Origin: Eledone cirrhosa
Lineage: Eukaryota
Assembly (NCBI GenBank): GCA_964016885.1
Contig: OZ024743.1
Location: 192,262,001 to 192,326,000, forward strand
DNA length: 64,000 nt
Direction of reading: 5' to 3'
The translations under genes were made by a program, and so were the position numbers. The notes under the pieces are model-generated. The model searched no databases, was not told where the DNA came from, and worked only from the letters and a program-made list of their open reading frames with translations. Shown piece after piece: positions 3,495 to 64,000 of the stretch. Position 1 is the first letter of the stretch. Every line of letters begins with the position of its first letter.

Positions 3495-4269
3495 TTCACC
3501 CACTACACTTCTGTTAAATTCTCATCTATGGTTCTATGTGCTAACCACCCATCTCTCGTTCTCCGCTCTAGAGAGGATACCTGCTTTGTCTGTATTCAAC
3601 TAGTCCTCATCTCTATCTTACTATTTATCTTTAACACTACACTGCGTCTACCTAAATCTCGCTACCACAACTATCACTACACCCTTACCATTATCACATC
3701 CATTAACATTAACATCACTACCTCTCTTACCTTCACCTTCTACCACGACACTGGTACTAATTATGATGGATGGAAAAAGTACCCAGTCCACCCTGTAATA
3801 AATGTTAAATGGTGATAATGATGATTCTGCCTTTCATCACCAACCTTTTGCCACTACACCAAATTCCCATCATGACACCTATATACTGAAAGAAGGCATA
3901 TCTCTTCATATTCGGTATCATCACTCTCCCTCTACTGCCAGCTATCATTATCTCTCTCTCCCTCAATAACATTGAGCCTGAGCCTCTTCATTTAACCCAT
4001 CACAATACCAACCATTATCATCATCATCATCATCATGTGTTTTAGATGTCATCCAAAACTATCACCATAACGCTTTTCTGACAGAGTTGCTAAAGTGTCA
4101 GATAGAATGCTGTGCAGTATTTCTTCTGGCTCTCTGCACTCTAACTTCAAATCCTGCAGAGGCCAACTTTGCAGTTCATCATTTTGGGGTGGTTTCTTCT
4201 CCTCAGGTTTTCCTGTTAGTGGATATTGCAGGTAGTTGTTGGATATTGCTGGGATACCATACTTCTGCA

Positions 4270-4790
4270 GCTGTGAAACAACTGCAGGAGTACTTAGCTA
4301 AGAGTAGGCCCCTTTGCCTCACATCTGTTGATCTGAAGAAAGCATTTGACAGGATACCTCACTCTGTAATCTGGAGAGTTCTTAGGAAATTAAGAGTGGA
4401 TGAATGACTTGTTATGGCCATACATTCTTTGAACAAACATGCTGTCAGCAGCATTTGAATTTACAATGAATATTACAATAAATTTAGAATGCAAGTGGAG
4501 GTTTATTATAGTCTTCTAGACTAATGGAGGATGTTAAGATGGGTTGCCTGTGGAAACTTCTATCTGCTGATGACTTAGTTCTTATAGCAGACTCTCCATC
4601 AGAATTAGAAAAGAAATTCCAGATATGGAAGCAAAACCTGGAATCAGGGAAATGAATGGGTATGATCAATATGCAGAAAAACAAAAAAAGGTAGCAGGAT
4701 CTTGTGTAAGCTAACAAAGAATGTAGGCTTTGTATATGGCAGATGCACAGGAGAAGTAAGCAATGCAGATGCACAGAAGTAAATAGCAAG
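4270..4790 (+). pseudogene. Degenerate RTE RT fragment
   Basis: QLQEYLAKSRPL..VDLKKAFDRIPHSVIWRVLRKL and LLSADDLVLIA motifs. Confidence 0.8.
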
Positions 4791-4799
4791 AGTACACGT

Positions 4800-5110
4800 G
4801 AAAAGGAAAGACCTAGGAAAATATGGCGAGCGAAGGCTAACTTCACAAAGGAAATGATATAAGGTCGAGGTGACTGGCGATTGGCCATACGGCAAAAGGA
4901 TGGAATGAATTTGGGGGAGGATCATGGTGTAAACGTTGAGATACACCCTCTCACTTCTGTTGGCGTTAGGAAGGGCATCAGCTATAGAAACCATGCCAAC
5001 ATGGAATGTATGAGCAGGATGTGATCATCTGACCTCTCTAGTCTCTGAACGTGACAACTTGTCTAACCAATTCCAGCATGAAAAACGGGCGTGAAACGTT
5101 GATGATGATG
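4800..5110 (+). mobile_element. RTE-type 3' end with (GAT)n tail
   Basis: GRPRKIW-like codons, ggcgttaggaagggcatca motif, then aaacgttgatgatgatg. Confidence 0.7.
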
Positions 5111-5127
5111 ATTATATGTGTGTTACA

Positions 5128-5285
5128 AATAATGGTTTCTGATTTAGGCAAAATGCCAACAATTTGCGAGAGACAGAGTCGATTAAATCAATCCAGTGCA
5201 TTACTGGTACTCTATTTTATCGACCCCGTAAGGATGAAAGGCAAAGCTAACCTCGGCGGGGTTTGAACTCAGAATGTAAAGGACC
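5128..5285 (-). mobile_element. tRNA-derived SINE (Meta/MESC-like core)
   Basis: ctggtactctattttatcgaccccgtaaggatgaaaggcaaag core plus B box tttgaactc (reverse complement). Confidence 0.85.
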
Positions 5286-5358
5286 GTGTGTAAAAAATAA
5301 TGACATTATAAGGAGTACACAGAACTCCAGAGTAACAACACTCAAACTTGGCTTTAAT

Positions 5359-5359
<1 letters not shown>

Positions 5360-5421
<62 letters not shown>

Positions 5422-5475
5422 TGAAGATATAAACATATATACTACGTTTATAAATAATAAACATGACTACCGCCG

Positions 5476-5571
<96 letters not shown>
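5360..5571. repeat. Compound microsatellites (TG)n/(TA)n/(GA)n and long (TA)n
   Basis: Read directly from the sequence. Confidence 0.95.
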
Positions 5572-5574
<3 letters not shown>

Positions 5575-7097
5575 CGAGTCTATAACCTATAAGTCGATGG
5601 ACCTGTTGCTATGTTTTTAAAAAATCAATAATTTATCTTCACCACCCCACAGTGTATAGTTAGCTCCCTTTGCTTCTATTTTGCATATATTTGTAAGCAG
5701 GTTATGCTTTCGAGTATCGATAAAATAAATATAAATAATATAATTAAGCCACAATTGAACCGACCATTTTCCTTATATGTAATTTAAGCAGTGAAACAAT
5801 TATAGAAATTAATATTTTCTCTAGAACTATACAGAAATGATAGAAATAAAAAAAAGCAGAAAGTAGCATGAACTTATTTATATACAGTACGTCCGTCGAA
5901 ACATATTTCAATGAGAAGTGTTCAATTTGTAAACAAACTTTCGTAGCAACCCTATCTCTATTTATCTACCTCTTTAACATACTCTCATTCATTTTTCCTC
6001 GTAAATGAGTAAAAGTGGTGTATAGGAAAGAATTATAGTCACATATACTTTTTTTTTTTAATTGCTAAGTTTTCAAAAAAGAAATGAACAAAAAATACTG
6101 GAAACAAAAATATTGTTGAAAGAAGATTATTATTAATCATGTCTGAAACTCCGCCAAAATAATATAGAATATTAACAAGGTGTTTTACCTGTCTTGGTGT
6201 TGAATATCCCATAAACAAATTGGTCTCATTTTTGTGACTTGCCAAGAACTAACTGTTAGGCTTAGTTACCACGCATGCGCATTAACATTTTTTTAACTCT
6301 AGCCGCTAGAAGTTGCTGTATAGTTAAAAAAAAAATTTAAAAAAAGGTGATTGTTGAGTTATCGTCAAGCCAACAAAGTGAAGCTTCGTATGATTGTTCA
6401 ACCTGCTACACATAAGGCCAAATTCCCTCAAATATCATTCAATGACAACAATAATTATCGTGCTAATGCTAGAGCCTCCCCGCAGCCACTCAACCTGCTA
6501 GAAATAGCAGCAAAATCTCCCTTAAGTCACACTCCACCGTTTAATAAAATTAAGCACGCATAAGATAATGTAATTATACAAACACAGTGTCAAAAACAAT
6601 TACGGGGTGTTCACAGTCAAGATATCGTTAATCGTAGGTCTGTTGGCATTGAAATGAACATTAAAAATTCTACCATGTCACTACAAGCCACCATTTACGT
6701 TTTCAACCACACAAGTTCAAAATATTAACAGTGTTACTCGAAGATAAGCATTTTCCGTTGACGGCGTGTTTAAATAGGAGAAAGGTTGTTTAATTACGTT
6801 AGTTTTAATATGTACAAAAGAGAGTTGCCTCCCCTAGTGTAAAGAAAGTTTACCAGTATGAATAAATTTCTTTCAGAAAGGCAATCATCAGCATCATTAT
6901 CATCATCATCGTCCGCTTTTCCCTGCTTGCAATATAGTTCAATTTTAAGATTTAATTACAATTCATTTTAAATTAAATTTTTATATTATAAATCTTCTAT
7001 TTATCAAAATATCAGTCACTGCCAATTATAGTAGATTGAAGATATTAGGTTTATTGCACCTAATATTCATTTTATTAATTTGTATAAAAAAGGAATA

Positions 7098-24632: not shown

Positions 24633-27600
24633 ATCATCATCATCACCATATTACATCCGTTCTTCCACGCTAGTATGGGTTAGACGGGTTATCCTGTTGT
24701 GGGCAGTGTCCAGTCGGCTGACCTTGTCTTGCACACGCTGGAACTGGTTCTGGCTTGATTTCTACAGCTGGATGCCCTTCCTAACACCAACCTCATTTAC
24801 AGTGAGTGCTGGGTGCTTTTTTTCCATGGCACCTACACGTCCACTTTACAGTGTGGACTGGGTGCTTTTTTGCCGTGACACCTCCACGACCACTTTGCAG
24901 TGCAGGGGCATATTGTCTATAGGCTTCAGCTTCAGCTTGTACTCGTGGAAACTCGGGTCTTCTGTATTACTGTGTAACGCCAGAGGTCTCAGTCCTGTGC
25001 CATCGCCTTTGAGAGGTGCAAGATCAGCTTTTATCACTTCATCTCAGGTCTTCTTGGGTCTCCCCACTCCGCGGCTTCCATCAACTTCTAGTGTTCTGCA
25101 CCTTTCTATGCAGCTGTCATCCTTCATACACATCACATGTCCATACCACCGCAACCTCCTCTCCTGCAACACAGCATTTGATTCCTCTTATGCTCAGTCT
25201 CTCTCTCAATTCATTTATGCTTTGCCGTTCACGTATATTACTATTACACATCCATCAGAGTAAGCAAGCTTCGTTTCTTTCTAATCTATGCAAGTCTTCT
25301 ACACACAGTGCCCAGGGCTCACTACCATGTAGCATTGCTGTTCGGATACACGCATCATACAGTCTGCTTTTCATTTTAAGGGAAAAGCCTTTTGCAGCTA
25401 GCAGTGGCAGTAGTTCCCTGAACTTCTTCCACCCCGTTCTTACCCTGGCTACTGTACTTTCCGAACACCCACCTCCGCTGCTAATTCGGTCACCTAGGTA
25501 GCAAAAGCTGTCTACTGTTTCTACAGAGCCCTCCCAGAGTTTGGTGGTGCTTGTTTCTTGTGGCCGTTTGCTGCTTGCCTACATTCTTAGCTAAGCTTCC
25601 TGAAATGCCACTACATCTCTTGTGTACACATTGTTTGCATTTGGGGCAGATGATGGAGTTCCTACCTACACCTTTCCTACATACTGAGCAAGGCCATTTC
25701 CCTGAGGGGATCTGGGTTCTGTTTTCTCATCTACTTATGAAGACTTTAGTCTTTGTCAGGTTGACTTTGAAACCCTTTCTTTCTAGTTCCTGCTTCCATG
25801 ATTGGAATTTCTTCTCTGGTTCCACCATAGATTCAGCTATAAGTGTGAGATCATCCGCATATAGGAGTTCCCATGGGCATCCAGTCTTAAACTCCTCTGT
25901 TATTGCCTGCAATACTATAATGAACAGGAGAGGGCTAAGAACAGAGCCCTGGTGGACACCGACCCGTATGGTAAATTCCTTGCTATAGTCATTGCTAACC
26001 CTAACTTTGCTGACTGCTCCCCTATACATGGCTTGTACAGCTTTCACAAGCCATTCATCTACTCCTAGTTTTCTAAGAGCCCACCAGATTATAGCATGGG
26101 GCAGTCTGTCAAAGGCTTTTTCCAGATCGACAAATGCCAGGTAGACTGGCTTACTTTTAGCTAGGTACTTTTCCTGTGACTGCCTCACAAGGAAGATGGC
26201 ATCAGTGGTGCCTTGTCCTGGCACAAACCCAAATTGCATCTCATCTAGTTTTACCCGGTCCCTAATCAACTGTGCTATAATTCTTTCCGTTACTTTCATG
26301 ACCTGGTCCATCAGCTTTATACCTCTATAGTTTCCTCTATCTAATGCATCACCTTTACCCTTGTAGCAGTTGACAATGGTGCTACTGCACCAATTCTTTG
26401 GTATGACACCTTCTAGTATTACCTGGTTAACAATACGTGTGGTTATGGTGTGATCTACCAACCCAGATGCTTTCAGCATCTTGACAGCTATACCCGATGG
26501 ACCGGTTGTCTTCCCAGTCTTCATATCTTTAATTGCCTTACTTACTATGCTGCTGCTGACTTGTACTGCTGGCCCCTCTATAGTGTCCACTTCTGGTAGG
26601 GTCTCTTTCTCCCATGCATTCTCCTAATGGCTCTTTCTTCTTGAAACTTGTGAGGGCAAGCTCACCTTTATCATTCCGAACACACTTCTCTCCAATGACA
26701 TCACAATTCAATCTAACACACTGCCTTGCAATCCTGAACACCTCCTCTTTCTGGTCCTCATGCTGCAAAACATGCTTGAATTTTCCATCCTCTGCTTCCC
26801 TTCTAGTTAAGTATACTTGTCGCCTAGCTTCCCTCCTGGTCTCTATGCAATGTACCCTGCTTCCCCCCTTCTTCCATTCTTTCCATGCCTGTCTCTTAGC
26901 CTTAACTGCCTCATCTACCTTATTGTTCCACCAATAAGTTACTCTCCTCCTCCCTGTGGTCTTGCTCCAGCCACAGATCTCATCTGTCGACTTTAGTAAG
27001 TTATTCTTTAGGAACTCCCAGTGCTCTTCTAAATTGAATGTCTCTATCTGTTCTTCTTTACTGTCATAGGCATCGAGTAAAATACCTCTAAATCTGTTAC
27101 TGGCTGATGGGTCTTTCAGCTTCCAGATCTTTCTCCTCCAGGTTGCCTTCTGTTTCCAGGTTCATCTAATTCTGACCGTGAGGTTGCTGACAACTAAGTT
27201 ATGTTGGGAGGTACATTCCTCACCAGGGAAAGCTTTTGTGTTTACAACCACCCATCTATCTCGTCCTCTGATGAGGATAAAATCTATCTGACTAGAATGC
27301 TTCCCAGATCTATAGGTGATCAGATGGTTGTCGGGTTTTTGAAGTTTGTGTTACATATCAACGTTATTGGCATCACAGAATTTCTTGTGCCAAACCCGTA
27401 GCCTCCATGGACTCTATAGAAGCTGTCACGGTGTTTCCTAATGTGTCCATTAAAGACTCCTGCAATGATTAGGAAGTCATTTTTGTTTGTTAGGGCAGTG
27501 GTGTGCATTAAGGACTCGTAAAACTTATCCTTAAGTTTGTCTGGCAACACCGATTGTGGTGCGTAAGCTGATATGATTGTAGCAATTGTTTTATTCAGGA

Positions 27601-28556
27601 CTAGTCTGAGTTTAATGATTCTTGCATTCACCTTGTTCACTGAGATTACCTTATCTACCCATTTGTCAGCTAATAGTATACCTATACCATCCATTCCGTT
27701 GTCATTTCCCACCCAGAAAATTTTGGAGCAGTGATTTTTGCCTACAAGGACTCTAGCAGACTCCCCTCTCCATCTAGTCTCTTGCACCCAGCATACATCA
27801 ATTTCCTTTCGGTCTAGCATCTCTAGAATTTCTCTTGCTCTTCCTTTCATTGTGCTTACATTGCTGGTTCCAACTCGGAGTTTTGGGCATTTGCCATCAT
27901 TCGTAGGAGAAGGTGAATTTTTGCGGGAGCGGGGTGTGTATGCTACCTGTCTCTGAATTAAAGTTTCACATGGGTGCTTGGTAACTCGCAGATTCATATT
28001 CATTTATTAATTCGGGGTGTTCCATTTATCCTCAGTTCATCCATAACGGTAAAGGAATTTTTTGGTGCAGGGCTAGAAGGACAGTAATAGTAATGGCAGA
28101 GTTTGTTGGGACTGGTAAGGGCTAGAAGAACAGTAGTAGTAGTAGTAATGGCAGAGTTTGTTGGGGCTGATAATGGGTGGGGACATGTTGCTGAGGTTTT
28201 ATTGGTCGAATAGCCTATGGTGGTGTGACAAGATGGGCGGGAAGGAATTGTGAGATAGGTAGCCATCATGGCATATAACATCACAGGAGATTTGGGTGAA
28301 ATAAAGCAGTACAAGTATACATATTAGACAAAGCGAATATGCAAGGATTTCGAAGATAGTCATCTAGTTTCGTAAACCTCAAAATGAAATATTTAGTAAT
28401 GCATTTTGCCTTTCAGAAATCAAAATTCTGTGTCAGGCTTCGTAAACCTCGAAATGAATGAATGAGAAGGAAGAAGGGAGGTAATGGGTAAAGGATAGGA
28501 TATGACTTTCGTAGGAGAGAGGGAGAGATATAATGACCAACGTGCTTTCCTTCGAA
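24633..28556 (-). mobile_element. Near full-length RTE LINE, family A (APE endonuclease, RT, PHD-like finger), disrupted
   Basis: APE: LRVGTSNVSTM...DVCWVQETRW...ISAYAPQ. RT: QFGFVPGQGTTDAIF, FVDLEKAFD, GVHQGSVLSPLLF, LLYADDL. (GAT)n tail; (TA)n on both flanks. Confidence 0.95.
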
Positions 28557-41229: not shown

Positions 41230-44200
41230 TTGTTTATTTATTTATGTTCGTCTACAGCGTGATGGTGCCACGCTAAAATCACCGGGGGTGATGAAATCAA
41301 TGGGGGTGATGAAATCACCGGTGATTATGTAACCATACATTCACCAATCCTCGATATGAGTGTTTAAATGTTGAACCTAAACAGTTCGAATAACGGTGAA
41401 GAGGAGACTGGAACGTCATGTGACAGACTCTCACCCAGCAAGTGCTCCCTGGCCCAGCAGCAGGGACCTGGCTGTCATCCAAATACTGCTGATGTTGGAG
41501 GAAGAAGAAGAAGGAAAGGGACAAGAACCAACTGGATGAAAGAATTGAATAGAACTGTCATGGAATGTTACCTGAAGAGTAACCCCATGGGAAAAGGCTA
41601 TAGGAAACGGATGCATAACATCTGGAACGAGATTGGTCTATTTAAATTAGATGAACAAAAATTGGCTGAGCAGGGTCGGGTAATAAGAACTGATGGATGG
41701 TTAAGCGAGTTGGAACTGGAGGAACTGAGCAGAGAGATTAGGTTGGAAATGGAGAGTGGAGTATGTCAGGCATACCAGTGGGAAATGAAGGTGAAGAGGT
41801 TGAGAAACCTGAGGAAGCATCCGAAGCAGACAATGATCTGAATGCTGAAATAAATAACATCTGGAACAAGATACGGCCATTGAGGAAATGAATGCTGACG
41901 GGCTAGGACAAGATTTGGTTGATATCCTGAACTTAGTGGTAGATGAAATGAACAATGATAGTGGAAAACCTATGAACCTAAGATTTGTAGACAGGAAAAA
42001 GTTAAAAGAAACAACAGCTAAGGTAAACAAAGTCATTCCATACCTTGAGGCGAGGAACCTTCACCAATGCAACAATATCCTAAAAGCAACAGCAAATGCG
42101 GTGAGGAAATTACTTGGCATAAAAACGAGAGGAAACAACAAACAAGAAAGATCAGAACCTTGATGGATGAAACAACTGAATGGTCAAATCAAGGAAATGA
42201 GAAAAGACATTGGAAAGCTTGAGTCCCTACTGAATGGGACATTACAAAACATAGACACTAAAAATAGATTGGAAATAAAGTACAAAACTAGGGGGAAAAA
42301 GCTAAATATTATCATAGAGTAACTGAAGCAACGCATTGTAGCAAAAAGTGCAAAGATTAGGCGGTATTAGAGCAGAGTCAGTCAGTATAGACAACAACCA
42401 GAAAATGTTGTTTGGACAGCTTGAAGGGAAAGAAAGAGGCAACGACTTGATCCCTGAGGCGGAACAGACTAAGACATTCTGGAGAGGATATGGGAGCAGG
42501 ATGTTGAACATAATAGTCAGGCAGTGTGGATTGACAAAAGGAAATTAGTAAAAAGGCTCACCAACAACCTGATTTGAGTATCACAGTTGAAACTCTTAAA
42601 GGGCAGGCCAAAAAAATGGAAATCACCAGGCCCAGATGGTGTGCAAGGGTATTGGATCAAAAATATAACATCCCTCCACCCGAAACTGACAACCATGTTC
42701 AATGACTGCTTGATATCGGGTGAGGTACCAGAGTTGTTGACAAAAGGTACCACAGTTATGGTAATGAAAGAGCAAATCAAGGGTAATGATGTTACCAATT
42801 ATAGACCTATAACATGCCTGTCTGTAATGTGGAAACTGTTAACAAGCATTGTGTCTGAGGAAACCATCACCTCCACATAAACAACTTGTTACAGGATGAA
42901 GAGAAAGGATGCCGAAAGAAGTCCCGTAGTACAAAAGACCAGTTACTTATTGATAAGATGGTAATGAGGAATTGCAAGAGGAGACACACTGGTCTTGCCA
43001 TGGGATGGATAGATTACAAAAAGGCATTCGACATGGTACCTCATTCTTGGATAACCAAAAGCCTAGAGATCTTCAACGTGGCAGATAACATCAGACAGTT
43101 GTTGAGCAAAAGTATGAAGTCCTGGAAAACAGAGTTAACATTGGGTGGAGAATCCTTGGGAGGCGTGAAGATCAAGAGAGGTATCTTCCAGGGAGATAGT
43201 TTGTCCCCTCTGCTGTTTGTCCTTGCCCTGATACCCCTAACCATTATATTGCGAAAAGTGAGAGCAGGATACAAGTTGGGAAAAGGAGAGCTTACCATCA
43301 ATCACCTCCTCTTCATGGACGATCTTAAACTCTTTGGGAAGAGTGAGAAGGAGTTGGATGTACTTGTTGACACTGTCCGTATTTTCAGCAATGATATATG
43401 TATGGAATTTGGTATTAATAAGTCCTAGTGATGAAGAGGGGTAAATTGAGCAGAAGCAACGGAATCCAGGTACCAAGAGATGATAAAGGAAATTGACACT
43501 GAAGAAGGATACAAATATTTAGGTGTTCTGGAGGCAGATGACATCAAGAACAAAAAATGAAGTAATTGATAAGATCTGAGTACATTAGGAGAGTAAGGAG
43601 CATATTGAAATCACATCTAAATGTAGGAATGTCATAAGTGCAGTGAATTCCCGAGCTGTGTCTATTATTAGGTACAGTGGAGATTGGTGGAGTACAAAGG
43701 TGGAGATTGGCAGTATCAGTGGAGGGTCGGACGCCCTGCTTTCCAGCATAGTTACGTCCCTTTACGATCTGAGTTCAAATCCCGCTGAGGTTGACTTTGC
43801 CTTTCATCCTTACGGGGTCGATAAAATAAAGTACCAGTAATGCACTGGGTAATTGCTGGCCTTGTGCCAAAAGTAGAAACAATTATTAGGTACAGTGCGG
43901 GAATTCTGAAATGGAATGTTGCTGAACAAAAAGAAATGGATAGGAAGACTAGGAAGCTATTGACTATCTACATGTTCCACAAGAAGAGTGATGTTGATAG
44001 ACTCTACTTAAAGAGATCTGAAGGTGGAAGAGGTCTTATCAGCATAGAGGGCTGTGTTCAGATGGAGAAAAACAACCTGCACAAATACGTGACTGACAGT
44101 AAGGAGCCAATACTCAAAATTGTACTGAAGGAGAAGACAATAGACCAGGGGATGTCCAAGGAGGAAATAACAAGAAGGAGGAAGAGCAACCTTCATGAAA

Positions 44201-45025
44201 AATCCCTTCATAGTACCTTCTTTAAGAAAACTGAATTTAGAGATCCACAGACATGGAACTGGTTAAAAAGTAGAGACCTTAAAAAGGCTACAGAAGGAAT
44301 TCTAATGGCTGCGCAAAAGCAGGCCCTCAGAACAAGTGGGTGAAACACCATATTTACAAGGAGGAGGCTAGCCCACTGTGTAGGATCTGTGGAGAGAGAG
44401 AGGAGACTGTGGCTCACATTGTATCCGAGTGTAAACACCTAACCCAGACTCACTATAAAGGCTGGAGACATGATGTGATAGGCAGAGTGATCCACTGGCA
44501 CCTATGCAAAGCAAACAATTTACCACATTCTGAGAAGTGGTATGAGCATAAGCCAGAGTCGGTGATAGAAAATGATCAGGTGAAGGTACTATGGGATTTT
44601 AGGATACCGACGGACAAGAAATTAGAACACAATAAGCCTGACCTGGTGGTTTTGGACAAGGAAAAAGGATTGTGCCTGATTGTAGATGTAGCCTGCCCAT
44701 TTGACACGAGAGTGCAAGAAAAGGAGAGGGAGAAAATTAACCGATACCAGGACTTAAAGTGGGAGGTAAAAAGGATTTGGAACTGCCATGAAATCAAGGT
44801 CGTCCCGATTGTCATAGGAGCACTAAGTACTATCTCAAAGAGTTTCCAAGGATGGTTAAAGAAAATTATTCCAGCCCCGCTTTTTGGAACACTTCAAAAG
44901 GCATGCTTGCTGGAAACAGCAAGAACCCTCCGATACGTCCTGAATGTCTGAGGCTGCAGGAAGTGGCTTGATATTCATTTCAACAAACTTTCCAGTTAAA
45001 TAACATCAATGACTGAGACTCAAAA
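41230..45025 (+). mobile_element. Near full-length Dong/R4-clade LINE (RT, CCHC, RLE), disrupted
   Basis: [108 protein letters not shown]; ends in (TAA)n. Confidence 0.93.
43680..43881 (+). mobile_element. tRNA-derived SINE inserted in the Dong ORF, 16-bp TSD
   Basis: TSD attattaggtacagtg at 43664-43679 and 43882-43897; A and B boxes and core intact. Confidence 0.95.
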
Positions 45026-45047
45026 AATAATAATAATAATAATGAAA

Positions 45048-45270
45048 TAATGGTTTCTGATTTAGGCTCAAGGCCAACAATTTCAATAGAAAAGGAAAGT
45101 CGATTAAATCGACTCCAGTGCATTACTGGTACTTTATTTTATCGACCCCGTAAGGATGAAAGGCAAAGCTAACCTCAGTGGGTTTTGAATTCAAAATATA
45201 AAGGGCCGTAACTCTATGCCACAAAGCAGAGTGTCCAACTCTCTACCGATACTGCCAATCCACTGCCCTT
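45048..45270 (-). mobile_element. tRNA-derived SINE (longer subfamily)
   Basis: Core and head; flanked by (TAA)n. Confidence 0.9.
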
Positions 45271-45297
45271 TATAATAATAATAATAATAATAATAAT

Positions 45298-46610
45298 GAT
45301 TTCTTTATTAACCACAAGGGTTGACACAAAGTAGACATTAAGGACAGTACAGGACAATACAGGACGGTACAAATGGGCATTTCTGCATGTAAAAAAAACA
45401 AAAAACAGAGGATGTAACAAAAAAAGAACAATGAAAAATTCCCCAATAGGGGGAGACTTCCGAGGGCCATCGTGGAGAAAGTCCATTAAAAAAAGCCACG
45501 GTGACCCTGACCACCAAGGCAAGTGCCCTCTCCCAGTTTTCCACCTTCAATTTACAGGCACATACTCAGAGTAGGTCCATTCACTCGGGCCATTCTTGCC
45601 TCTCTCCCCCATCTTTCAACAAAATGCTGGGAAGAGAGCACCTCCCTCTCTACTCTGAATTTTCTTTTCAAGTGAAATTTGAAAAAGTTAATCAGGGCAT
45701 CACCGAAGAGGTAAGTGCTCGTCTTCAGCCCTTTCAGAGGCATCCACCATACTATCTCTTTCGCCTTGGCCACCAGACAGATAAAAACTGCCTGCCCTTC
45801 CCGGCTAAAGGAAGAGGGCGGGGCAATCCTCACGATGGACTCAGCTGATAGCCGGATCCGTTCTACACGTGACAGCAGGTGTTCAACATAAACCCACAAG
45901 TCAACAATGTTCAGACACTGGACGAGTGCATGCAGGATGGTTTCGTCGCCCTGCGCGCATCTCGGACATGCCCGGCTGACGGCACCTCCATGCCTGTAGA
46001 GTTTATCCCGAACTGGCAAAGCTCCTCGGTAGCCAGGCCAGGGATTTCTGGAAATTGTTCATAGGCCCCGGCCCAAAAGTTCTTCCGAAGAGATTGGCTA
46101 GTTGATTTTCGTTGATGCCTAGAGTTTCCCCAAGTACGTCGTCGCTCTTCCCCTCCACTAATCCTCTATAGAACGCCAAGGTGGAGTTTCCACCAATCAC
46201 ATTGCCCGACTGGTCAAGGGCCGTGAGCGCCTGAAGACATTCCAGTCTCCAAGCGGTCCCTCTTGGTCTTTGCTTGACCCAGGACTGCAGCTACGTCAAG
46301 GAGACGAGCTGGGGAATAACACGTCTAGCAAACGGCGACCACACCTGATCACTGTTGAGGAAGAGGTGGAGATGTCATAGCCTGAGCGCGTGTCTGCGCA
46401 TCATTAGCCACAGCATGCCCAGCCCTCCATGTAGTGGGTGTTGACAGCAGATGGACCGCCTGACCATTGGAGCGCGTCCCTTCCACAAAAAGCGAAAGAG
46501 CAAATGCTCCAGTGCAGTCAGGCGAGGCTTAGGACAAGTCACGACGGTCAGACGGGAGTAGATGACGGACGCGATGTACGCATTTGCCACCTCCGCTCGG
46601 CCTTTCAGGG
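45298..46610 (-). mobile_element. 5'-truncated L1/Tx1-clade LINE
   Basis: FRFLWKG...QHPLHGGLG, PVRDKL, CPRC..DETILHALVQC; minus 3' end aataaa then (TTA)n. Confidence 0.85.
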
Positions 46611-47129
46611 ATAATAATAGCTTCTAATTTTGGCATAAAGCCAGCATTTTTAAGGGGAAGGGAAAGTTAACTATATTAAGCCTAGTATTTCATTCTACTT
46701 TATTTTATCAGTTCTGGAAGGATGAAAGGCAAAGGTAATTTTGGCAGAATGTAAAAAGCTGGAACAAATACTGCAAAGTTTTTGTCTGATATGCTAATGA
46801 TTCTAGAAATCCCCCACCCAAACAATCATAATAATAATGGTTTCTGATTTAGGCACAAGGCCAACAATTTGGGGGAAGGGGAAAGCTGATTAAAATGACC
46901 CCAGTAGCTTACTAACACTTTATTTTGAATAATAATAATAATAATAATTGTTTCTACTTTTGGCACAAGGCCAGCTATTACCCCAGTGCATTACTGGTAC
47001 TTTATTTTATCGACCCCGTAAGGATGAAAGGTAAAGTTAACCTCGGCGGGATTTGAACTCAGAATGGCAAGGGCTGTAACTCTATGTGTCAAAGCATGGC
47101 GTCCGACCCTCTACCGATACTGCCAATCC

Positions 47130-47164
<35 letters not shown>

Positions 47165-47179
47165 TTTTATCGACCCTGA

Positions 47180-47210
<31 letters not shown>

Positions 47211-47225
47211 AAGAAGAAGAAGAAA
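46611..47225 (-). mobile_element. Cluster of three to four SINE copies/fragments separated by (TAA)n, then (GAA)n
   Basis: SINE tails at ~46620, ~46838 and ~46948; core fragment at ~47163; (gaa)n 47181-47224. Confidence 0.85.
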
Positions 47226-49456
47226 AGATACCATCATGACTAGTTAAAGGCATTACACTCCTACTTCCGAAGAATGATGAGACAAACAATCCCAAAAATT
47301 ACAGACTGATAACTTGCTTGACCACAATGTATAAAATTTTAACATCAGTCCTAACTGAATATACATATGATCACCTGATAACAAATGACCTATTTCCCAT
47401 TGAGCAGAAAGGGTGTAAACAAGGCTCATGTGGCTGTAGGGATCAGCTTTTGGTTAACAAAATGATACTGGAAGATTGTCATAATAGACACAAAAATCTA
47501 TCAATTGCTTGGATAAATTACAAAAAAGCATTCGATAGTTTGCCACAGAGTTGGATTGAAAAATGTTTAGAGATTTTCAAAATATCTCCCGTTGTCAGGA
47601 GGTTTTTGTCATTCAGTATGAAGACATGGAAAACGACACTCCTTTTGAATAGTGAAAAAAAAATCACTGGAAGCTGGAGAAGTTAATATTAATTGTGGAA
47701 TTTTTCAGGGTGAATTTTTATCACCGCTTTTATTCTTCATCACACTTATACCATTAAGTAAAATGCTCAATCAAACAAAACATGGATATAAAGTCTATGA
47801 CAAAACCATTAATCACTTGTTCTACATGGATGACCTGAAACTATTTGCAAAAAATGATGAGCAATTGCAAGAGCTATTATCCACTGTGAAGCAGTTCAGT
47901 GATGACATTAAATGGAGTTTGGACTAGATAAATGCGCCAAAGCAACGTTCACCAGAAGAAAGCTGCTGAAAAGTTCAGACATTAATCTTGATTGGGGGAA
48001 TGTGATAAGAGAACTTGATCAAGAGGAAACTTACAAATATCTAGGTGTTTGTGAAGGAGACGGAATCAAGCACTCAACAATGAGGGAAAGGATAAGGAAG
48101 GAATGTTACCGCACCGTAAGAGCAATCTTAGAACGGAATTGAATGCAAGGAATAGGATCGATGCCATAAACACCCTTGCCATACCAGTAGTAACCTACAG
48201 TTACAATGTCATCAACTGATCAAGCACAGAGATCAGTAGACTCGATACAAAAATTAGAAAATTCTTAACCATGCACAGAATACATCACCCTAAGGCAGAT
48301 TCAGATAGAATATATCTCCCTAGGAAAGAAGGAGGACGTGGGTTAATCCAGTTAGATATTGCGTTGAAAACTGCAACAATTGGATTATCTACATATCTAA
48401 GGGAATCACATGATTGGATGATCAAACTCGTTTTGAAACACGAAAGCATCAAAAGATTGAACTCCATTACAAAAGATGCACAAAGATACAGTAATAGACT
48501 GCAAATTTCAGAAGTTCCATTTACTGATGAAATGAAAAACACAGAAAAAGCAAAGCAGGTAAAAGTAACTGGAAAGAAAGAACTGCTACAGAAACTGGCT
48601 AAGAAATGGCAAGAAAAGCCTCTGTATGGAAAATACCCAGAAAGAGCTAACAATCCTGATGTTGACAAAACTTTAATCCATCAGTGGTTGGCATCCTCTG
48701 GACTGAAATCGGAGACTGAAGGACTAATTATATCAGCACAAGATCAGTGTCTGCCAACAAAAAATTGATGCAACCCATTATGCCGTGTATGTAAAAAACA
48801 ACTAGAGACCATTGATCATATAATTTCAATGTTCAGTCCTATAGCTCCAACCAAATACCTAAACAGGCACGACAGAGCTGCACAATACTTACATTGGATA
48901 ATGTGTAAGCATTTTGACCTGCCCCATCAAAAGAATTGGTGGGAGCATCAACCACCTCCCATACTAGAAAAAGATCACATCTCAATCTTGTGGAACTTTA
49001 GCATCCAAACAGACCGAAAAATAGATGCAAATAGACCTGATATAATTGATATGTCCGTTCCAATAGACAAGAATGTATCTATAAAAACATTTGAAAAATT
49101 GAGCAAGTATAAGGACCTGGAGATAGAAATTGGAAAAATGTGGAAATTGAGAACTAAAACAATACCAGTGGTTGAAGGCGCTCTGGGAATGATACCTAAG
49201 GGTTCTAATGATTACTTATCGTAAATCCCAGGAAACCCGCATATAGGAGAAATACAAAAGATAGTACTAATGGGAACTGCCCATATACTAAGGAAGATTC
49301 TGTCAATATAAGTACATCACAAGTCTAAACACCTAAAGATGCATGTGTGAATATGTGTGTTCTTTCTTGAACATGGCAGACCTTGTTGTCTCTTGAGGTC
49401 ACTGGTTGTGACTTGGTGATAACTCATATGAACATAAAGCAAGATAAATGCAACTG
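47226..49456 (+). mobile_element. 5'-truncated Dong/R4 LINE (second family)
   Basis: EQKGC..GCRDQLLVNK, WINYKKAFD, GIFQG..SPLLF, HLFYMDDLKL, GGRGL, ETEGLIISAQDQ, RHD, NRPDI; (TAA)n tail. Confidence 0.92.
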
Positions 49457-49475
49457 TAATAATAATAATAATAAT

Positions 49476-49648
49476 AATTGTTTCTAGTTTTGGCACAAGA
49501 CCAGCAATTATCCCAGTGTATTACTGGTACTTTATTTTATCGACCTCGTAGGGATGAAAGGCAAAGTTAACCTCGGCGGGATTTGAACTCAGACCATAAA
49601 GGGCCGTAACTCTTTGCTGCAAAGCATGGCATCTGACCCTCTACCGAT
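49476..49648 (-). mobile_element. tRNA-derived SINE with clipped head
   Basis: Tail, core and B box present; joins the next Dong copy directly. Confidence 0.9.
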
Positions 49649-50885
49649 AAGCAGATGTGGATCGTCTTTACCTTCCTAGAACTCAAGGAGGGCGTGGCCT
49701 GATCCAATTTGAACTTGCTTACAAGACCACCATCATTGGACTGGCCAAATACCTTGAAACAACTAACGACTGTATACTGAAACTTGTTGAAAAGCATGAG
49801 AGAAGTAAGAAGCTTCATTCTATCTTGAAGGAGAGCAAAAAATATGCTACTGATCTCATGCTTGATACCCAGGCTGGACAGATTAAAGAAACTGTTGCAA
49901 CTGATGCTGCTAGGCACATAAAATCACTGGCAAAAGCAAAAAGGCAAGGACAATTAGCATCAAATTGGGATCAGAAACCTCTGCATAGCAAACAAGCTGA
50001 TGTTGACCAAAAGCACACCCATCAGTGGCTATGTAGTTCAGGGCTAAAGGCCGAGAGTGAAGGCTTCATCTTAGCTGCCCAAGATCAAAGCTTATTGACT
50101 TGTAATTACCAGGCCAATGTGATGAGAAACGGAACAAACCCAAAGTGCCGATTCTGCAATGCTGAAGTTGAAACAGTGGATCACTTAGTCTCTGGATGTA
50201 AAGTTTTAGCACCAGTAGAATACAAATATAGACATGACAGAGTTGGCCAATATCTACACTGGGTAATATGTCGGCATTACAAAATAAAAGCTGAAGACAA
50301 GTGGTACAATCATCATCTCTGGGATTTTCCTGTACATACTAACAGGACCATAAAAGCAAATAGAGACATCATTGTAAAAGATCAACATAACAAGGTCTGT
50401 TTATTGATAGATATGAGCATCCCATGTGATCACAATATCGTGGCAAAAGAATTTGACAAGCTACGAAAATATAAAGATCTGCTTATTGAAATTGAGAAAA
50501 TGTGGCACATCAAGGCCGTTACAATATCAGTGATTGTAGGAGGACTGGGAATGATCAAGAAAGGAACAGAACAATATTTGCGAATGATTCCTGGTTTACC
50601 CTCTCTGCACGAGGTGCAAAAAAAATTGTTTTGACTGGTACTGCACACGTATTGAGAAGAGCACTATCTCTGTAAGATTGACTTCCCTCCTTGTATTTAC
50701 ATATGCATATGCACATGTGTATATATATATATGTATACTGTTTTTGTTTTTGTTTTTTGTTTTTTTTTATTATAATCAATGTGCTGTATTAACTGGCTTA
50801 CCAATGTACACTGTGAATTTATTTGCCCTAGGTGTCAGGAAGACACTCAGCATATATCTCAGAAACAATAATGAAAGAAAATAAA
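49649..50885 (+). mobile_element. 5'-truncated Dong/R4 LINE (third family)
   Basis: 325-aa ORF DRLYLPRTQGGRGL...AAQDQ...CRFC..ETVDHLVSGC...RHD...IDMSIP...KYKDL; (TAA)n tail. Confidence 0.92.
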
Positions 50886-57670: not shown

Positions 57671-60600
57671 TCGTCATCATCATCATCATCATTATTTTAT
57701 GTCCGCTTTTCCCTGCTTGCAAGGGTAGGATGGGTCCTATTCAGCACAGCATCTCTCCATTTGTCCCAATCCCTTGTCATCTCCTCTGCGAGCTTCAGCG
57801 ATCTGAGGTCAGCTCTCACCACCTCCGCCCATGATTTTTGTGGTCTTCCTCTACTGCATCTTCCTTCTACTGGCATTTTTTGGCACTTCTTTACCCAGCA
57901 GTCTTCTCTCCCGCACACTACAGTGTATCCTTCTAATACCCAGTTTCTCTCTCAACTCGTCTATGCTTGGTTGTTCAAGCACATTGACGTTGCACATCCA
58001 ATGGAGCATGCTTGCTTCATTTCTCTCCAGCCATCGCATATCCTCCACAGTTGCTGCCCATGTCTCACTACCATGCAGCATCACGCATCTCACACAGGCT
58101 TCATATAACCGGCCTTTCGTTCGTATGGAGAAACCCTTCTTTGTCAACAGAGGAAGCAGCTCCCTAAACTTCTTCCAACCCGTCCTTATCCTAGATACTA
58201 TGGCCTGAGAGCACCCTCCTCCCTTGCTAATCTGATCACCTAGGTACCAGAAGCTATCAACCACCTCTATAGATCCTACCTGCATTTGAAAAATGTGTCT
58301 ATTATTGCAACTTCTACTGTCAAATGTCCCTGAACATCTACTGCATATGTAGTTTTCCCTACCTGTTAGTTTGCGTGCTATCCCACTACATCTCTTGTGT
58401 ACCCAAGATCTACATTGTGTACATTTTATAGAATTTATGCCAACTCCTTTTCTACATAACGAACATGGCCATTTCCCTGATGGAATCAGAGTGTTGTCCT
58501 CTTTTCTACTTATCAACACTTTAGTCTTAGCTAGGTTCACTATCAGTCCTCTTGCTTCCACTTGTTGTTTCCATAGCCAGAATTTATTCTCTAGCTCCTC
58601 TACTGATTCTGCTATAAGTACCAGATCGTCAGCATAGAGAAATTCCCATGGGCAGCCAGTCTTAAACACCTCTGTTATGACTTGGAGAACTATAATGAAC
58701 AAGAGGACCGAACCCGGATGTACTCCTACTTGTATCTGGATTTCCTCACTAAAATCCATTCCTACTCTCACTTTACTGACAGCACCCCTGTACATAGCTT
58801 GCACTGTCCTCACAAGCCATTCCTCTACATCTAGTTTCCTTAGGGACCACCAGATGACAGATGGGGGTACTCTATCAAAGGTCTTCTCTAGGTCAACAAA
58901 ACCTAAGTATAGTGGCTTATTCTTCTCTAAGAACATCTCATATAATTTGACCCTTTCTCTAATTATTTGAGCTAGTATTCTTTCTGCCACTTTCATAATC
59001 TGATCCATCAGTTTTATGCCCCTATAATTGCTCCTCTCCAGAGCAGCCCCTTTACCTTTGTAGCAATTTATAAGAATACTGCTGCACCAATCTTTAGGTA
59101 TGAGTCCACCATATATAGCTTGATGGACGATGCGTGTTTAACAGGGTGGTTTTAAGAGTAGATGTATCACCACGAAGAATTGAGGTTAGGCTGTAAGTCT
59201 CAGGTTCTGTTGCTGCTGTGATAAAACCTCTAGAAGGAATCCTTCCATATCACATTTAAAGGTATTGCTGTGGTAACAGCATCACAAGACTCTACGATGT
59301 TTTTTATGTTAGTCATATCGACAAAGAGTAACATGATAATAATGTCAACAAGGAAGAATGTTCGTGAGATGAAATGTATGTCTATTTTATTGTAGCACAA
59401 AGTAATGTTTGTTAAATTGTATGGTTGAAGTTAAACATAAAATGGTTACAAAAGGAATGTGGCATTGTGCCAGGCCCAAGCGAAAATCTCACCGTTACAT
59501 TGTTTGTGTTGGTCCTTCGGCGTTTAAGCAGCAAGAGAATAAGTGATCTTTACATTAGCATGGTCAGGATGCAAGAGAGAGATTTCTCAAATCGACGCGG
59601 GAATTTTCCCCTTGGGGCGCGTAGAGATACATTCTCTTCCGCTGGCGGTCATTGGCTGGGCTGAGCCAAATAACGCACGGAGAATGTATGTGAGCCCGCG
59701 GAATGTAGGTCACTACAATACCCCCTTCTAGTCGTAAGACGATACAGATTATTGAATCAGCAGAGAAAAATGCTGAAAGTGCACCTCAATGAAAAAAAAA
59801 TTGAATAAAAGAATGTATGCAAGAAGAAAAATGAGGCGCTAAGGGCCGTGTTGAGCCTCTGTGTCAAATGACTAGCTGTTTTGTAGTTTATACGTGACCA
59901 CCAGGGGTCTAACAGAAAACGGATAAAGTCTGACATGGGCGAAGTTGCTGTTCTTGCATTAAATGTTAATGGTAAGTGTTGTACCAGTAGCTGTGGGTGA
60001 AGCTGTTATGGTAGTTTACCAGTGCTGGCAGGAAGATGATATGTAGGCGAGAAAATGTCGGCCTCCCAGATGTATTGCCGAAAGTGCTAGGCAGCCAGGA
60101 AAAAATGGCTGGTTGCTTTGAAAAGAAAAAAGCAAGTTGAATCTGTAGGTGGGTAGTAGAAATGGTGGAAATGCTGACAGGTCCAGTTCCATTTGTTGTT
60201 TTCCCAGTGAGTCGGGTAAAGTAACAAGATGGAGGTTGTTATGGACGATGAGTGTGCAGCGAGATGCGAAACTGTTTGAGTCCAGCTGCGATTAGTATTC
60301 TCGTGTTGCGGTGCAGGTGAGTTAAGCTGCAAAGTGTCGATAGTTTGGTGTCTCCACAAAGTGAGAAGGGATCTCGCAGAATATTACGACGTTTGAATAT
60401 CATACACTAAGGACAACAACATGTTGGTGTGTGCATATGCAGGCATGTAAACAGCAAAGAAAATGTGTGCGTGCAGTCATATATATATAATGATAGAGAG
60501 AGAAAAAAAATGAATTTTCATATAATACAGTTTTTTTTTAAAAATAAATGTCCAAACATTGCCTGTAAAAAAAAAGAAAGAAAGAATTGTTTCTTAACAC

Positions 60601-61840: not shown

Positions 61841-62050
<210 letters not shown>

Positions 62051-62434
62051 TAAACAAATAACAATCAAAGAGTGTTTAAGAACATTTAATTACTAACGAT
62101 CATTTCATCCAAGCACAAGACCAGAATCATCGGAGTATAAATCAAAAGTTAGAACACTGATAACTTTTTCAAAGAACATTCTGGGAATACTGCATATGGG
62201 AAGAAAGCAAAAATAATAGATATTAACATTGATATAAGAAAGGAAAGCAAGAAGCATATGAAAAGCATGGTCATATAAATATAATGCTGATTCTTAATTA
62301 TATTTATATGACCATGCTTTTCATATGCTTCTTGCTTTCCTTTCTTATATCAATGTTAATATCTATTATTTTTGCTTTCTTCCCATATGCAGTATTCCCA
62401 GAATGTTCTTTGAAAAAGTTATCAGTGTTCTAAC
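62051..62434 (-). mobile_element. Penelope-like terminal (pLTR) fragment with perfect 138-bp fold-back
   Basis: Arms 62148-62285 and 62297-62434 are exact reverse complements; hammerhead downstream on the minus strand; (TA)n flanks. Confidence 0.7.
62091..62137 (-). ncRNA. Minimal type I hammerhead ribozyme (Penelope-type)
   Basis: Minus strand tact-CCGATGA-ttctggtcttgtgcttggat-GAAA-tgatcg-TT-agta: stem I tact/agta, near-palindromic stem III. Confidence 0.65.
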
Positions 62435-62480
62435 GTATATACGTATATATATATTATAATATATATATATATATATATAT

Positions 62481-62639
62481 AACGAAGGAAATGTGGTAAG
62501 GAACCAGGTGGACCATAAAGCTCCAAAGTACTCAATACTTGGGGTAGTAGAGTGGGTAATAGGAACCAGTAAGACCCCGACGGCTGAGCTCAAGCCGTTT
62601 CGACGGCTTGAGCTCAGCCGTCGGGGTCTTACTGGTTCC

Positions 62640-62644
<5 letters not shown>
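62481..62644 (-). mobile_element. Second Penelope-like terminal fragment: 3' half of a hammerhead inside a perfect 42-bp hairpin
   Basis: Arms 62557-62598 and 62603-62644 with loop ttcg; minus strand reads cGAAAcggcttgagctcagccGTCgggg; (TA)n flanks. Confidence 0.65.
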
Positions 62645-62713: not shown

Positions 62714-62929
62714 TAGAAAGTGAGATTTTTTTACAAAATGAAAAAAAAACGAGGTGTTCTACACGAGTGAAAGTATAAGGAAAAAAGATGAAATCGAAAA
62801 TGCAACTGGAGTCTTTTTTTTTAAATATATTTATGTGGTTCCTTTACAGGTTTCGCAGTTCTTGTTCTTTTCAAAAGTAGAATTGTGAGATGGAGGTTTT
62901 GTGGTTTTCTCGCATCTGGTTGATGTTCG

Positions 62930-64000
62930 AATGTTACTTCTGTTTTACATGGAAAAAAGTGGTTCGAAATGCTAGATTTTTAGAAAAGTAATTTGGTTGG
63001 TTGATGACTGTCATGTGAATAAGTATAATAAATTTCGCGCCCCAGTTCATGTTACAAAGTTCTTATTATATTTGCCTTCAAAAAAAAAGGGGGGGGGGGG
63101 GGGGCTCAGATTTTTTTTTCATATATGAGTGAAGTTTGGTTGGTTGATGCAGTTACGTGAATAAGCACATCAGCTTTCGTGCCAGTTTGTGTTTGAATTT
63201 CTTTTTACATAAAAAAGTGGCTCACAAAGGCTTTATTTATAAATGTAATTTGATTGGTTATAAATGAAATTATGACTGTCACGTGAACAAGTACATTAAA
63301 TTGCGCGCTGTATTTTGGAACTTTTTTGTAGCCATTTAGAGAATTGTGTGCCAAACAAAAGATAATGGTCAAGAACGGGATGGGGAGAATTGTTCTGGTT
63401 CAGGGATTATGGCTGATGTGCTGAAATGTAATTTGATTGGTTATAAATGAAATTATTACTGTCACGTGAATAAGTACATTAAATTTCGCGCCCGTATTTG
63501 GGAATTTCTTTTGTAGCCATTTAGAGAATTTTGTGCCAAACCAAAGATAATGGTCAAGAACGGGATGGGGAGAATTGTTCTGGTTCAGTGAGTATGGCGG
63601 ATGTGCTGGCGTGTCAAAATTCAGACTTTCTATTGAAATAAAGAAAGTAGAGATATGTATGTTTATTTGTGTGCTGGTGTGTAATTTCATTTATAACCAA
63701 TCAAATTACATTTATAAATAAAGCCTTCATGAGCCACTTTTTTTAAGTAAAAAGAAATTCAAACACAAACTGGCACGAAAGCTGACGTGACTGCATCAAC
63801 CAATCAAACTTCACTCATATATGAAAAATAAATCTGAGTCCCCCTTTTTTTGAAGGCAAATATAATAAGAACTTTGTAACGCGAACTGGCGCGAAATTTA
63901 TTATACTTATTCACATGACAGTCATCAACCAACCAAATTACTTTTCTAAAAATCTAGCATTTCGAGCCACTCTTTTCCATATAAAACAGAAGTAACATTC
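62930..64000. mobile_element. Large foldback element with modular TIRs, running off the window
   Basis: 62930-63272 is the reverse complement of ~63683-64000; internal tandem duplication 63241-63403 / 63424-63587. Confidence 0.85.

What the first reader, a model, noticed from the sequence alone, without database searches (positions are those of the whole stretch)
62051..62434. Hammerhead ribozyme cassette capped by a perfect 138-bp palindrome in (TA)n
Seen: a mismatch-free 138-bp inverted repeat with an 11-nt spacer, in a window where almost everything else is decayed. Ten nt beyond one arm lies a minimal hammerhead (stem I tact/agta, CCGATGA core variant, GAAA, near-palindromic tgatcg stem III, GUU site), and there is no ORF. 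Established: Penelope-like elements carry minimal hammerheads with palindromic stem III in their pLTRs and often leave inverted 5' structures. Inference: a very recent or homogenised fold-back insertion, or a non-autonomous ribozyme-hairpin element whose transcript would be a self-cleaving long dsRNA (possible ADAR/Dicer substrate).
Basis: partly seen in the sequence, partly recalled or inferred. Interest (0 to 1): 0.75.

Follow-up and report, generated by a model that had tools for sequence, protein, structure and literature searches.

The report
Penelope stub with re-copied palindrome arm
This is a back-to-back stub of an old Penelope-like jumping gene with a predicted, untested hammerhead ribozyme, a common structure in this genome; its one oddity is that the two arms are identical and share mutations found in no other copy, likely because one arm was later re-copied from the other.

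Summary
In detail: 138-bp perfect arms, an 11-nt spacer, and a minimal hammerhead-like motif 10 nt away. It is not a new hairpin element. It is a 5'-truncated, head-to-head insertion of the 3' end of a Hydra-type Penelope-like retrotransposon, whose reverse-transcriptase/GIY-YIG parent I traced in longer copies. The spacer is native element sequence.

Head-to-head pairs occur in 28 of 98 family loci, with variable breakpoints. A 1-Mb grid sample holds 11 palindromes with arms of at least 138 bp, 2 of them perfect. The scan has reported this architecture before on other DNA of this genome.

The hammerhead has a U4C core, no G10.1-C11.1 pair, CpG decay and no covariation, so cleavage is doubtful.

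One residue is odd. The family is old (other pairs differ at 332 of 3709 sites), yet these arms differ at 0 of 134 sites and share 5 rare variants, two of them together nowhere else in the genome. The right arm also stops at an unnatural point. The likeliest cause is a later template-switch re-copying of one arm; a young insertion from a lost source or an assembly artefact are rivals. Available reads could not decide.

The parts
62056..62285 (-). Main copy: last ~230 nt (element positions 1-230, my numbering) of a Hydra-type Penelope-like element, short (tail-less) 3' end next to (TA)n
   Evidence: 85-93% identity to 40 scored of 770 candidate copies; 12 of 230 differences from the family majority; colinear with RT/EN-bearing copies
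62148..62285 (-). Left palindrome arm (element 1-138)
62286..62296 (+). 11-nt spacer: the native element sequence immediately upstream of position 1, read in the direction of the right arm
   Evidence: same 11 nt precede position 1 in other copies; right copy aligns from -11
62297..62434 (+). Right palindrome arm (element 1-138), identical to the left arm; stops before the hammerhead, not at a natural element end
   Evidence: 0 differences at 134 scored sites; natural ends cluster at ~238 and 300+
62091..62137 (-). Minimal type I hammerhead-like motif: 4-bp stem I, U4C core, short stem II, palindromic stem III weakened by CpG decay; predicted cut after 62095
   Evidence: cleavage untested
61843..62052 (.). 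(TA)n tract at the left end (target site)
62436..62481 (.). Imperfect (TA)n tract at the right end, followed by an unrelated head-to-head element

Best explanation
This is an old, 5'-truncated head-to-head insertion of the 3' end of a Penelope-like retrotransposon (Hydra-type by protein motifs) in a (TA)n tract, whose arms were likely made identical later by one local re-copying event. Step 1 (structure shown, mechanism inferred): the element's enzyme cut AT-rich DNA and each cut end primed a cDNA on the element RNA, one from the short start (~238) and one from the tail start (~312). Both stopped near position 1 and were joined 5'-to-5', leaving 11 nt of native sequence as the loop. Step 2 (shown): the copy aged about 4-5%, including CpG decay in the hammerhead. 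Step 3 (inferred): a polymerase template switch or hairpin repair rewrote one arm from the other over 138 bp and dropped the rest of the right arm, including its hammerhead. The ribozyme is a passenger of the parent's terminal repeat and is probably weak or dead here. Confidence in the family and structure alone is about 0.95; the score given covers the whole account, including step 3.
For: Parent: copies L031-L033 run colinearly 2.3 kb or more upstream into a broken ORF with DKT, YRDD, a CxCX5C linker, no CCHH, and CxxC..E..N..CxH, matching the Hydra diagnosis in PMC8557442 section 11. Architecture: 30 head-to-head pairs in 28 of 98 family loci, with 5' ends from -532 to +179; an independent copy folds at nearly the same place (L035). 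All 21 pairs with two intact 3' ends have one short and one longer (tail-side) end, fitting the two RT start sites of PMC11167929. Age: best paralog 92-93%; nearest copy shares at most 5 of 13 variants, of 72 compared. Re-copying: arms differ at 0 of 134 sites against 332 of 3709 in the other 29 pairs (about 12 expected, Poisson P about 6e-6). The arms share 5 rare variants; a 23-mer holding two of them matches only these two arms genome-wide, and a 32-mer over the hammerhead variants matches only this copy. Of 79 palindromes with 12 or more paralog hits, this has the most shared rare variants with no arm difference. Template switching is reported to homogenise imperfect inverted repeats (PMC13100816, abstract).
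Against: It is a single case, and arm homogenisation is not general here. Six other short-loop pairs of the family differ at 98 of 935 sites, like long-loop pairs (234 of 2774). A second candidate (L133) was explained by a subfamily with a 95% paralog. At L133's 2.5% arm difference, zero differences in 134 sites has P about 0.035. Two other pairs also show zero differences, but over only 28 and 38 sites. No ancestral imperfect allele was seen. Hydra membership rests on motifs read by eye; Pfam and a protein search gave nothing.
Confidence: 0.62

Rival explanations
1. Young insertion from a diverged source: an aged genomic copy was transcribed and re-inserted in trans by an active Penelope-like enzyme, both arms copied from the same RNA; the source is missing from this assembly.
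For: Very young families exist in this genome (40 of 40 scored copies 100% identical over 114 nt, many as palindromes), and the other perfect palindromes with enough paralogs are nearly all young. Shared variants follow directly from one template.
Against: No source found: exact patterns match only this locus, best paralog 92-93%. The right arm lacks a natural end, whereas 94 of 129 copy pieces reach position 225 or beyond. The left terminus is decayed.
Confidence: 0.17
2. Assembly or library artefact: an imperfect palindrome was rendered perfect, or a second arm was created, by a chimeric read or by polishing.
For: A perfect arm with private variants and an abrupt end is what an in-vitro template switch would also leave. 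No independent read support was obtained.
Against: The loop is native element sequence absent from the left arm, as in other copies. The right flank is not a mirror of the left. The same assembly keeps many imperfect short-loop palindromes (5.5-17.4% arm difference), so there is no systematic smoothing.
Confidence: 0.12
3. A selected, functional ribozyme-capped hairpin RNA (non-autonomous element or regulatory dsRNA) whose arms are kept perfect by selection.
For: A minus-strand transcript would fold into a 138-bp hairpin (-238 kcal/mol, z -31.5) followed by the hammerhead.
Against: No second copy of this cassette. No double-sided compensatory change in stem I across 78-80 copies. The core is no more conserved than the adjacent 3' flank (5.0% in both). 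U4C lowers activity in vitro (PMC3088659 passage). The stem III self-duplex falls from -10.0 to -6.4 kcal/mol in this copy. None of the 13 variants is A-to-G on the sense strand. Selection alone cannot easily fix the same private change in both arms.
Confidence: 0.03

Closest known systems
Hydra clade of C-terminal EN+ Penelope-like elements (Craig et al. 2021, PMC8557442; passages and section 11 read)
   Same: DKT, CxCX5C linker, no CCHH, CxxC/CxH around the conserved E and N, hammerhead near the 3' end, (TA)n targets, inverted 5'-truncated copy, tail at one end only
   Different: The parent here is longer than the '<3 kb' described (about 3.7 kb traced in L032, still 5'-truncated) with a 3' region of about 1.35 kb; the hammerhead core is non-canonical (U4C); this copy's right arm lacks a natural end
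Minimal hammerheads of metazoan PLEs (Cervera and de la Pena 2014, PMC4209133; parts 1-2 of 4 read)
   Same: Type I, 4-bp helix I, short palindromic helix III suited to dimers, mostly single motifs from truncated elements, some pairs on opposite strands 100-700 bp apart
   Different: C at core position 4 in 59 of 84 copies; U or A opposite U at the base of stem II instead of G10.1-C11.1; activity unknown (that paper found none for a monomer and little for dimers)
Poseidon PAc of Anolis (Frangieh et al. 2024, PMC11167929; parts 1-2 of 4 read)
   Same: Two RT start sites bracketing an optional tail, cleavage and extension of both strands, AT-rich targets; hammerhead not needed for insertion in vitro
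   Different: Different clade; tail about 75-80 nt here; no biochemistry for this family
Adineta vaga Penelope head-to-head inverted pLTRs (Arkhipova et al. 2013, PMC3846280; passages read)
   Same: Head-to-head inverted repeats with palindromes at the junction and an optional tail on one repeat
   Different: That paper favours self-priming; here the loop is continuous with the shorter arm in this copy and in L035, which fits two separately primed cDNAs better (inference)
Quasi-palindrome template switching and inverted-repeat homogenisation (PMC13100816, PMC8755829; abstracts read)
   Same: An imperfect inverted repeat becomes perfect by copying one arm from the other
   Different: Here the tract would be 138 bp in an animal transposon stub, coupled to loss of the outer part of one arm; inferred from one allele only
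Metazoan non-LTR retrozymes (bioRxiv 10.64898/2026.07.22.740005; part 1 of 5 read)
   Same: Type I hammerhead, PLE-related, non-coding at the locus
   Different: No tandem monomers; one hammerhead only; it is a truncated piece of a coding element

Membership tests
EN+ Penelope-like element | Single ORF with RT and C-terminal GIY-YIG-type endonuclease upstream of this 3' end | tested here: met
   Broken ORF with RT motifs, thumb, linker and EN colinear with the segment in L031-L033; read by eye, Pfam silent
EN+ Penelope-like element | 5' truncation with adjacent inverted copy | tested here: met
   30 head-to-head pairs in 28 of 98 loci, variable breakpoints
EN+ Penelope-like element | Optional 3' tail, present at one end only | tested here: met
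   41 short ends, 47 tail ends, 6 between, of 94; 21 of 21 intact pairs mixed
EN+ Penelope-like element | Partial-tandem direct pLTR in a full-length copy | not tested
   No full-length copy was recovered
Hydra clade | DKT in place of DKG | tested here: met
   L032 translation
Hydra clade | CxCX5C linker, no CCHH, CxxC and CxH around E and N | tested here: met
   L031 and L033 translations
Hydra clade | RWK motif | tested here: inconclusive
   Not seen in the decayed, 5'-truncated L032 frames
Hydra clade | Insertion into (TA)n | tested here: met
Hydra clade | Phylogenetic placement of the RT | not tested
   No reference sequences were fetched; protein search found no relative
Type I minimal hammerhead | Three-stem topology with 4-5 bp helix I and palindromic helix III | tested here: met
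   same architecture in other repeat families of this genome (found by a scan that demands pairing)
Type I minimal hammerhead | Canonical core CUGANGA..GAAA..UH | tested here: not met
   This copy and the majority read CCGAUGA; 14 of 81 copies canonical, 27 of 81 intact U4C; the canonical ones may be CpG decay (inference)
Type I minimal hammerhead | G10.1-C11.1 pair | tested here: not met
   U/U in 47 and A/U in 29 of 80 copies; U/U here
Type I minimal hammerhead | Covariation among copies | tested here: inconclusive
   None in stem I, 0-2 cells per pair elsewhere; not expected among dead copies of few masters
Type I minimal hammerhead | Self-cleavage | not testable with these tools
   Needs an in-vitro assay
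Non-LTR retrozyme | Tandem monomers each with a hammerhead | tested here: not met
   No such tandem at the locus

The most novel reading that the evidence does not exclude
Active Penelope-like enzymes recycle dead copies: an aged, non-autonomous stub was transcribed and re-inserted recently, with both arms copied from one RNA, so that old hairpin-ribozyme stubs keep moving in trans long after their parent family died.
Probability: 0.15. Interest if true: 0.5.

Novelty: new member of a known kind. Interest (0 to 1): 0.2.

Why it matters
As an object it is ordinary: one of an estimated tens of thousands of Penelope-like and other palindromes in this genome. Two small points have value. First, the family shows a strict one-short-end, one-tail-end rule (21 of 21 pairs), genomic support for priming from both cut ends at the two RT start sites seen in vitro. 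Second, this copy warns that a perfect palindrome does not prove a young insertion. If the re-copying is real, it is a natural 138-bp arm-homogenisation event that can be tested by genotyping one locus.

Tried and rejected
Reads: no RNA holder listed. Three contig sets of one sample held 27-35% of 26 words. No record covered 62255-62279, and the window's letters at 62396 and at 62948 (outside the palindrome) were not seen. That sample may lack this haplotype, or records were filtered, so the result is inconclusive in both directions.

Rfam: only hairpin-driven miRNA-family matches below gathering score, rejected as chance.

Fixed fold-back point: a gapped pattern for a fold at position 1 gave 6 sites against 11 for the control. 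Two are this family (the window and L035); the other four are not. 5' ends in the 25 copies found only by a 3'-end query are spread from -486 to +245. No hotspot shown.

General arm homogenisation: rejected. L133 as a second case: explained by a subfamily. Two searches for paralogs of other near-perfect palindromes (L038, L104) returned nothing, not even the query's own locus, and so are uninformative; L009, L093 and L080 proved young or fairly young.

ADAR fossil marks: none among the 13 variants. Pfam and a protein homology search for the parent gave nothing significant. Probabilities of the hammerhead fold from the nearest-neighbour model were not used, as that model ignores the core. The element at 62773-64154 first looked like a MITE but is another head-to-head repeat with a hammerhead-like motif.

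Literature: five searches; no listed title described this family or this locus. Supplementary files of PMC8557442 (family and hammerhead lists) were not opened and may already list this family.

Full report
OBSERVATION. The inverted repeat is as described: arms 62148-62285 and 62297-62434, 138 nt, no mismatch, 11-nt loop, between (TA)n tracts. The hammerhead-like motif lies on the minus strand at 62137-62091, 10 nt beyond the left arm. A motif of this shape was found once in the window and in none of 40 simulated 64-kb sequences; Rfam does not recognise it. The window is not otherwise free of clean structures: a second perfect palindrome with 42-bp arms lies at 62557-62644.

WHAT IT IS. The segment 62056-62285 (minus strand; I number it 1-230) is the 3' end of a dispersed family: 770 candidates, 40 scored, 85-93% identical. 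Other copies continue upstream, and the 11-nt loop is simply the family sequence that precedes position 1, read in the direction of the right arm. The locus is therefore two copies joined 5'-to-5': positions 230 to 1 on the minus strand, and -11 to 138 on the plus strand. [quoted passage not shown] The motifs DKT, CxCX5C, absent CCHH, and CxxC/CxH around E and N are those given for the Hydra clade (PMC8557442 section 11). This assignment is by eye: Pfam and a protein search gave nothing and no tree was built. An earlier scan note calls the genome octopus; I did not test that.

THE ARCHITECTURE IS COMMON. In 98 family loci (picked by similarity searches, so biased to well-preserved copies) there are 30 overlapping head-to-head pairs in 28 loci, with 5' ends from -532 to +179. 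One independent copy folds almost at the same place, with arms 85% alike (L035). 3' ends fall in two classes, about 238 and 300 or more (41 and 47 of 94, 6 between). All 21 pairs with two intact ends have one short end and one longer end (17 reach 305 or more, 4 stop at 251-294). [quoted passage not shown] That both cut ends prime a cDNA is my inference from these. In a 1.0-Mb grid sample, 53 short-loop palindromes have arms of 35 bp or more (10 perfect) and 11 have arms of 138 bp or more (2 perfect, 5 at 98% or more). That is 0.24-7.2 perfect ones of this size per Mb, or roughly 700-22,000 in 3 Gb. Most are young: one such family has 40 of 40 scored copies 100% identical. The scan has recorded the same architecture on other DNA of this genome; those are unchecked notes, not evidence.

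THE HAMMERHEAD. It has the PLE minimal-hammerhead shape of PMC4209133, and other repeat families in the fetched DNA carry the same shape with different stems (the scan demands pairing, so this is not an independent covariation test). It departs from the canonical core. Position 4 is C in 59 and T in 19 of 84 copies, and the base of stem II is U/U or A/U, not G-C. U4C is reported to lower activity in vitro while still allowing viroid infectivity (PMC3088659 passage). This copy has three further C-to-T changes in the motif, two at CpG sites; one breaks the stem III palindrome and weakens its predicted self-duplex from -10.0 to -6.4 kcal/mol. No compensatory changes were seen in stem I, and the core is no better conserved than the 3' flank. 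A minus-strand transcript would form a very stable hairpin, but nothing here shows transcription, cleavage or editing.

THE REAL ODDITY. The copy is as diverged as its relatives (12 of 230 differences from the majority; nearest copy shares at most 5 of 13 variants). The other 29 pairs differ between arms at 332 of 3709 sites, so about 12 differences are expected in 134 sites; there are none (P about 6e-6). Five rare variants sit in both arms. A 23-mer holding two of them matches only these two arms in the genome, and a 32-mer over the hammerhead variants matches only this copy. Among the 79 of 129 palindromes with enough paralog hits, this one ranks first for shared rare variants without arm differences (5 and 0; next 2 and 0). 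The right arm also ends at 138, not at a natural end; by the family rule it should have run to the tail. Against over-reading: short loops do not homogenise in general (98 of 935 sites differ in six other short-loop pairs); L133 looked similar but belongs to a subfamily; at L133's rate zero differences would have P about 0.035; and two short overlaps (28 and 38 sites) also show none.

MECHANISM AND RIVALS. The simplest account is an old twin-primed insertion followed by one local event that rewrote one arm from the other and dropped the outer part of the right arm (0.62). Template switching is known to perfect imperfect inverted repeats (PMC13100816 and PMC8755829, abstracts). A variant I cannot separate from it is a secondary inverted duplication of a single old copy; perfect palindromes in non-Penelope-looking sequence suggest such events occur here. 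Rivals: a young insertion from a diverged source missing from the assembly (0.17); an artefact (0.12), disfavoured because the loop is native sequence and the assembly keeps many imperfect palindromes; a selected ribozyme-hairpin RNA (0.03). Public reads could not decide.

VERDICT. A real feature and a new member of a known kind. It works like, and by motifs belongs to, the Hydra-type Penelope-like elements; its ribozyme is a non-canonical, decayed passenger. Interest 0.2, resting on the single old-but-perfect arm pair and the 21-of-21 end rule.

Noticed in passing
window 62481-62644: A second, unrelated head-to-head element with perfect 42-bp arms folded at a native short hairpin; very abundant (27 hits in the 1-Mb grid sample, best full-length paralog 97.5%). 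It shows the 3' half of a hammerhead-like motif (GAAA plus palindromic stem); no 5' core was found in the copies printed.
   Followed up: partly
window 62773-64000 and on into L034 (to about 64154): A third head-to-head repeat with ~500-bp arms at 89% identity, a 185-bp internal tandem, and a U3-A8-type hammerhead-like motif; its arms are not homogenised.
   Followed up: partly
L009:2450-2703 and L188-L202: A very young repeat family with a canonical-core hammerhead motif: 40 of 40 scored copies 100% identical over 114 nt, many as palindromes with loops of 2-76 nt; probably active.
   Followed up: partly
L093:7672-8062 and L173-L187: A family whose palindromes fold at a nearly fixed point (loop 1-5 nt in most pairs), unlike the family of this finding.
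   Followed up: partly
L052:1348-1685, L003:2239-2309, L069:1591-1672, L006:672-825, L099:5201-5342: Perfect or near-perfect palindromes in decayed microsatellite, other repeats or internal RT sequence, often with abrupt ends; candidates for DNA-level inverted duplication.
   Followed up: no
fetched loci: At least ten different minimal hammerhead-like families, including U3-A8 cores and several with U/U at the base of stem II.
   Followed up: no
window 25700-28000, 41400-50600, 57850-59140: Long broken ORFs that read like LINE endonuclease/reverse-transcriptase fragments (named by eye, not searched); no host exon was evident near the finding.
   Followed up: no
L033 (minus strand, about 4200-6040): Another Hydra-type RT/endonuclease copy of a different family lies just upstream of the traced parent copy.
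   Followed up: no
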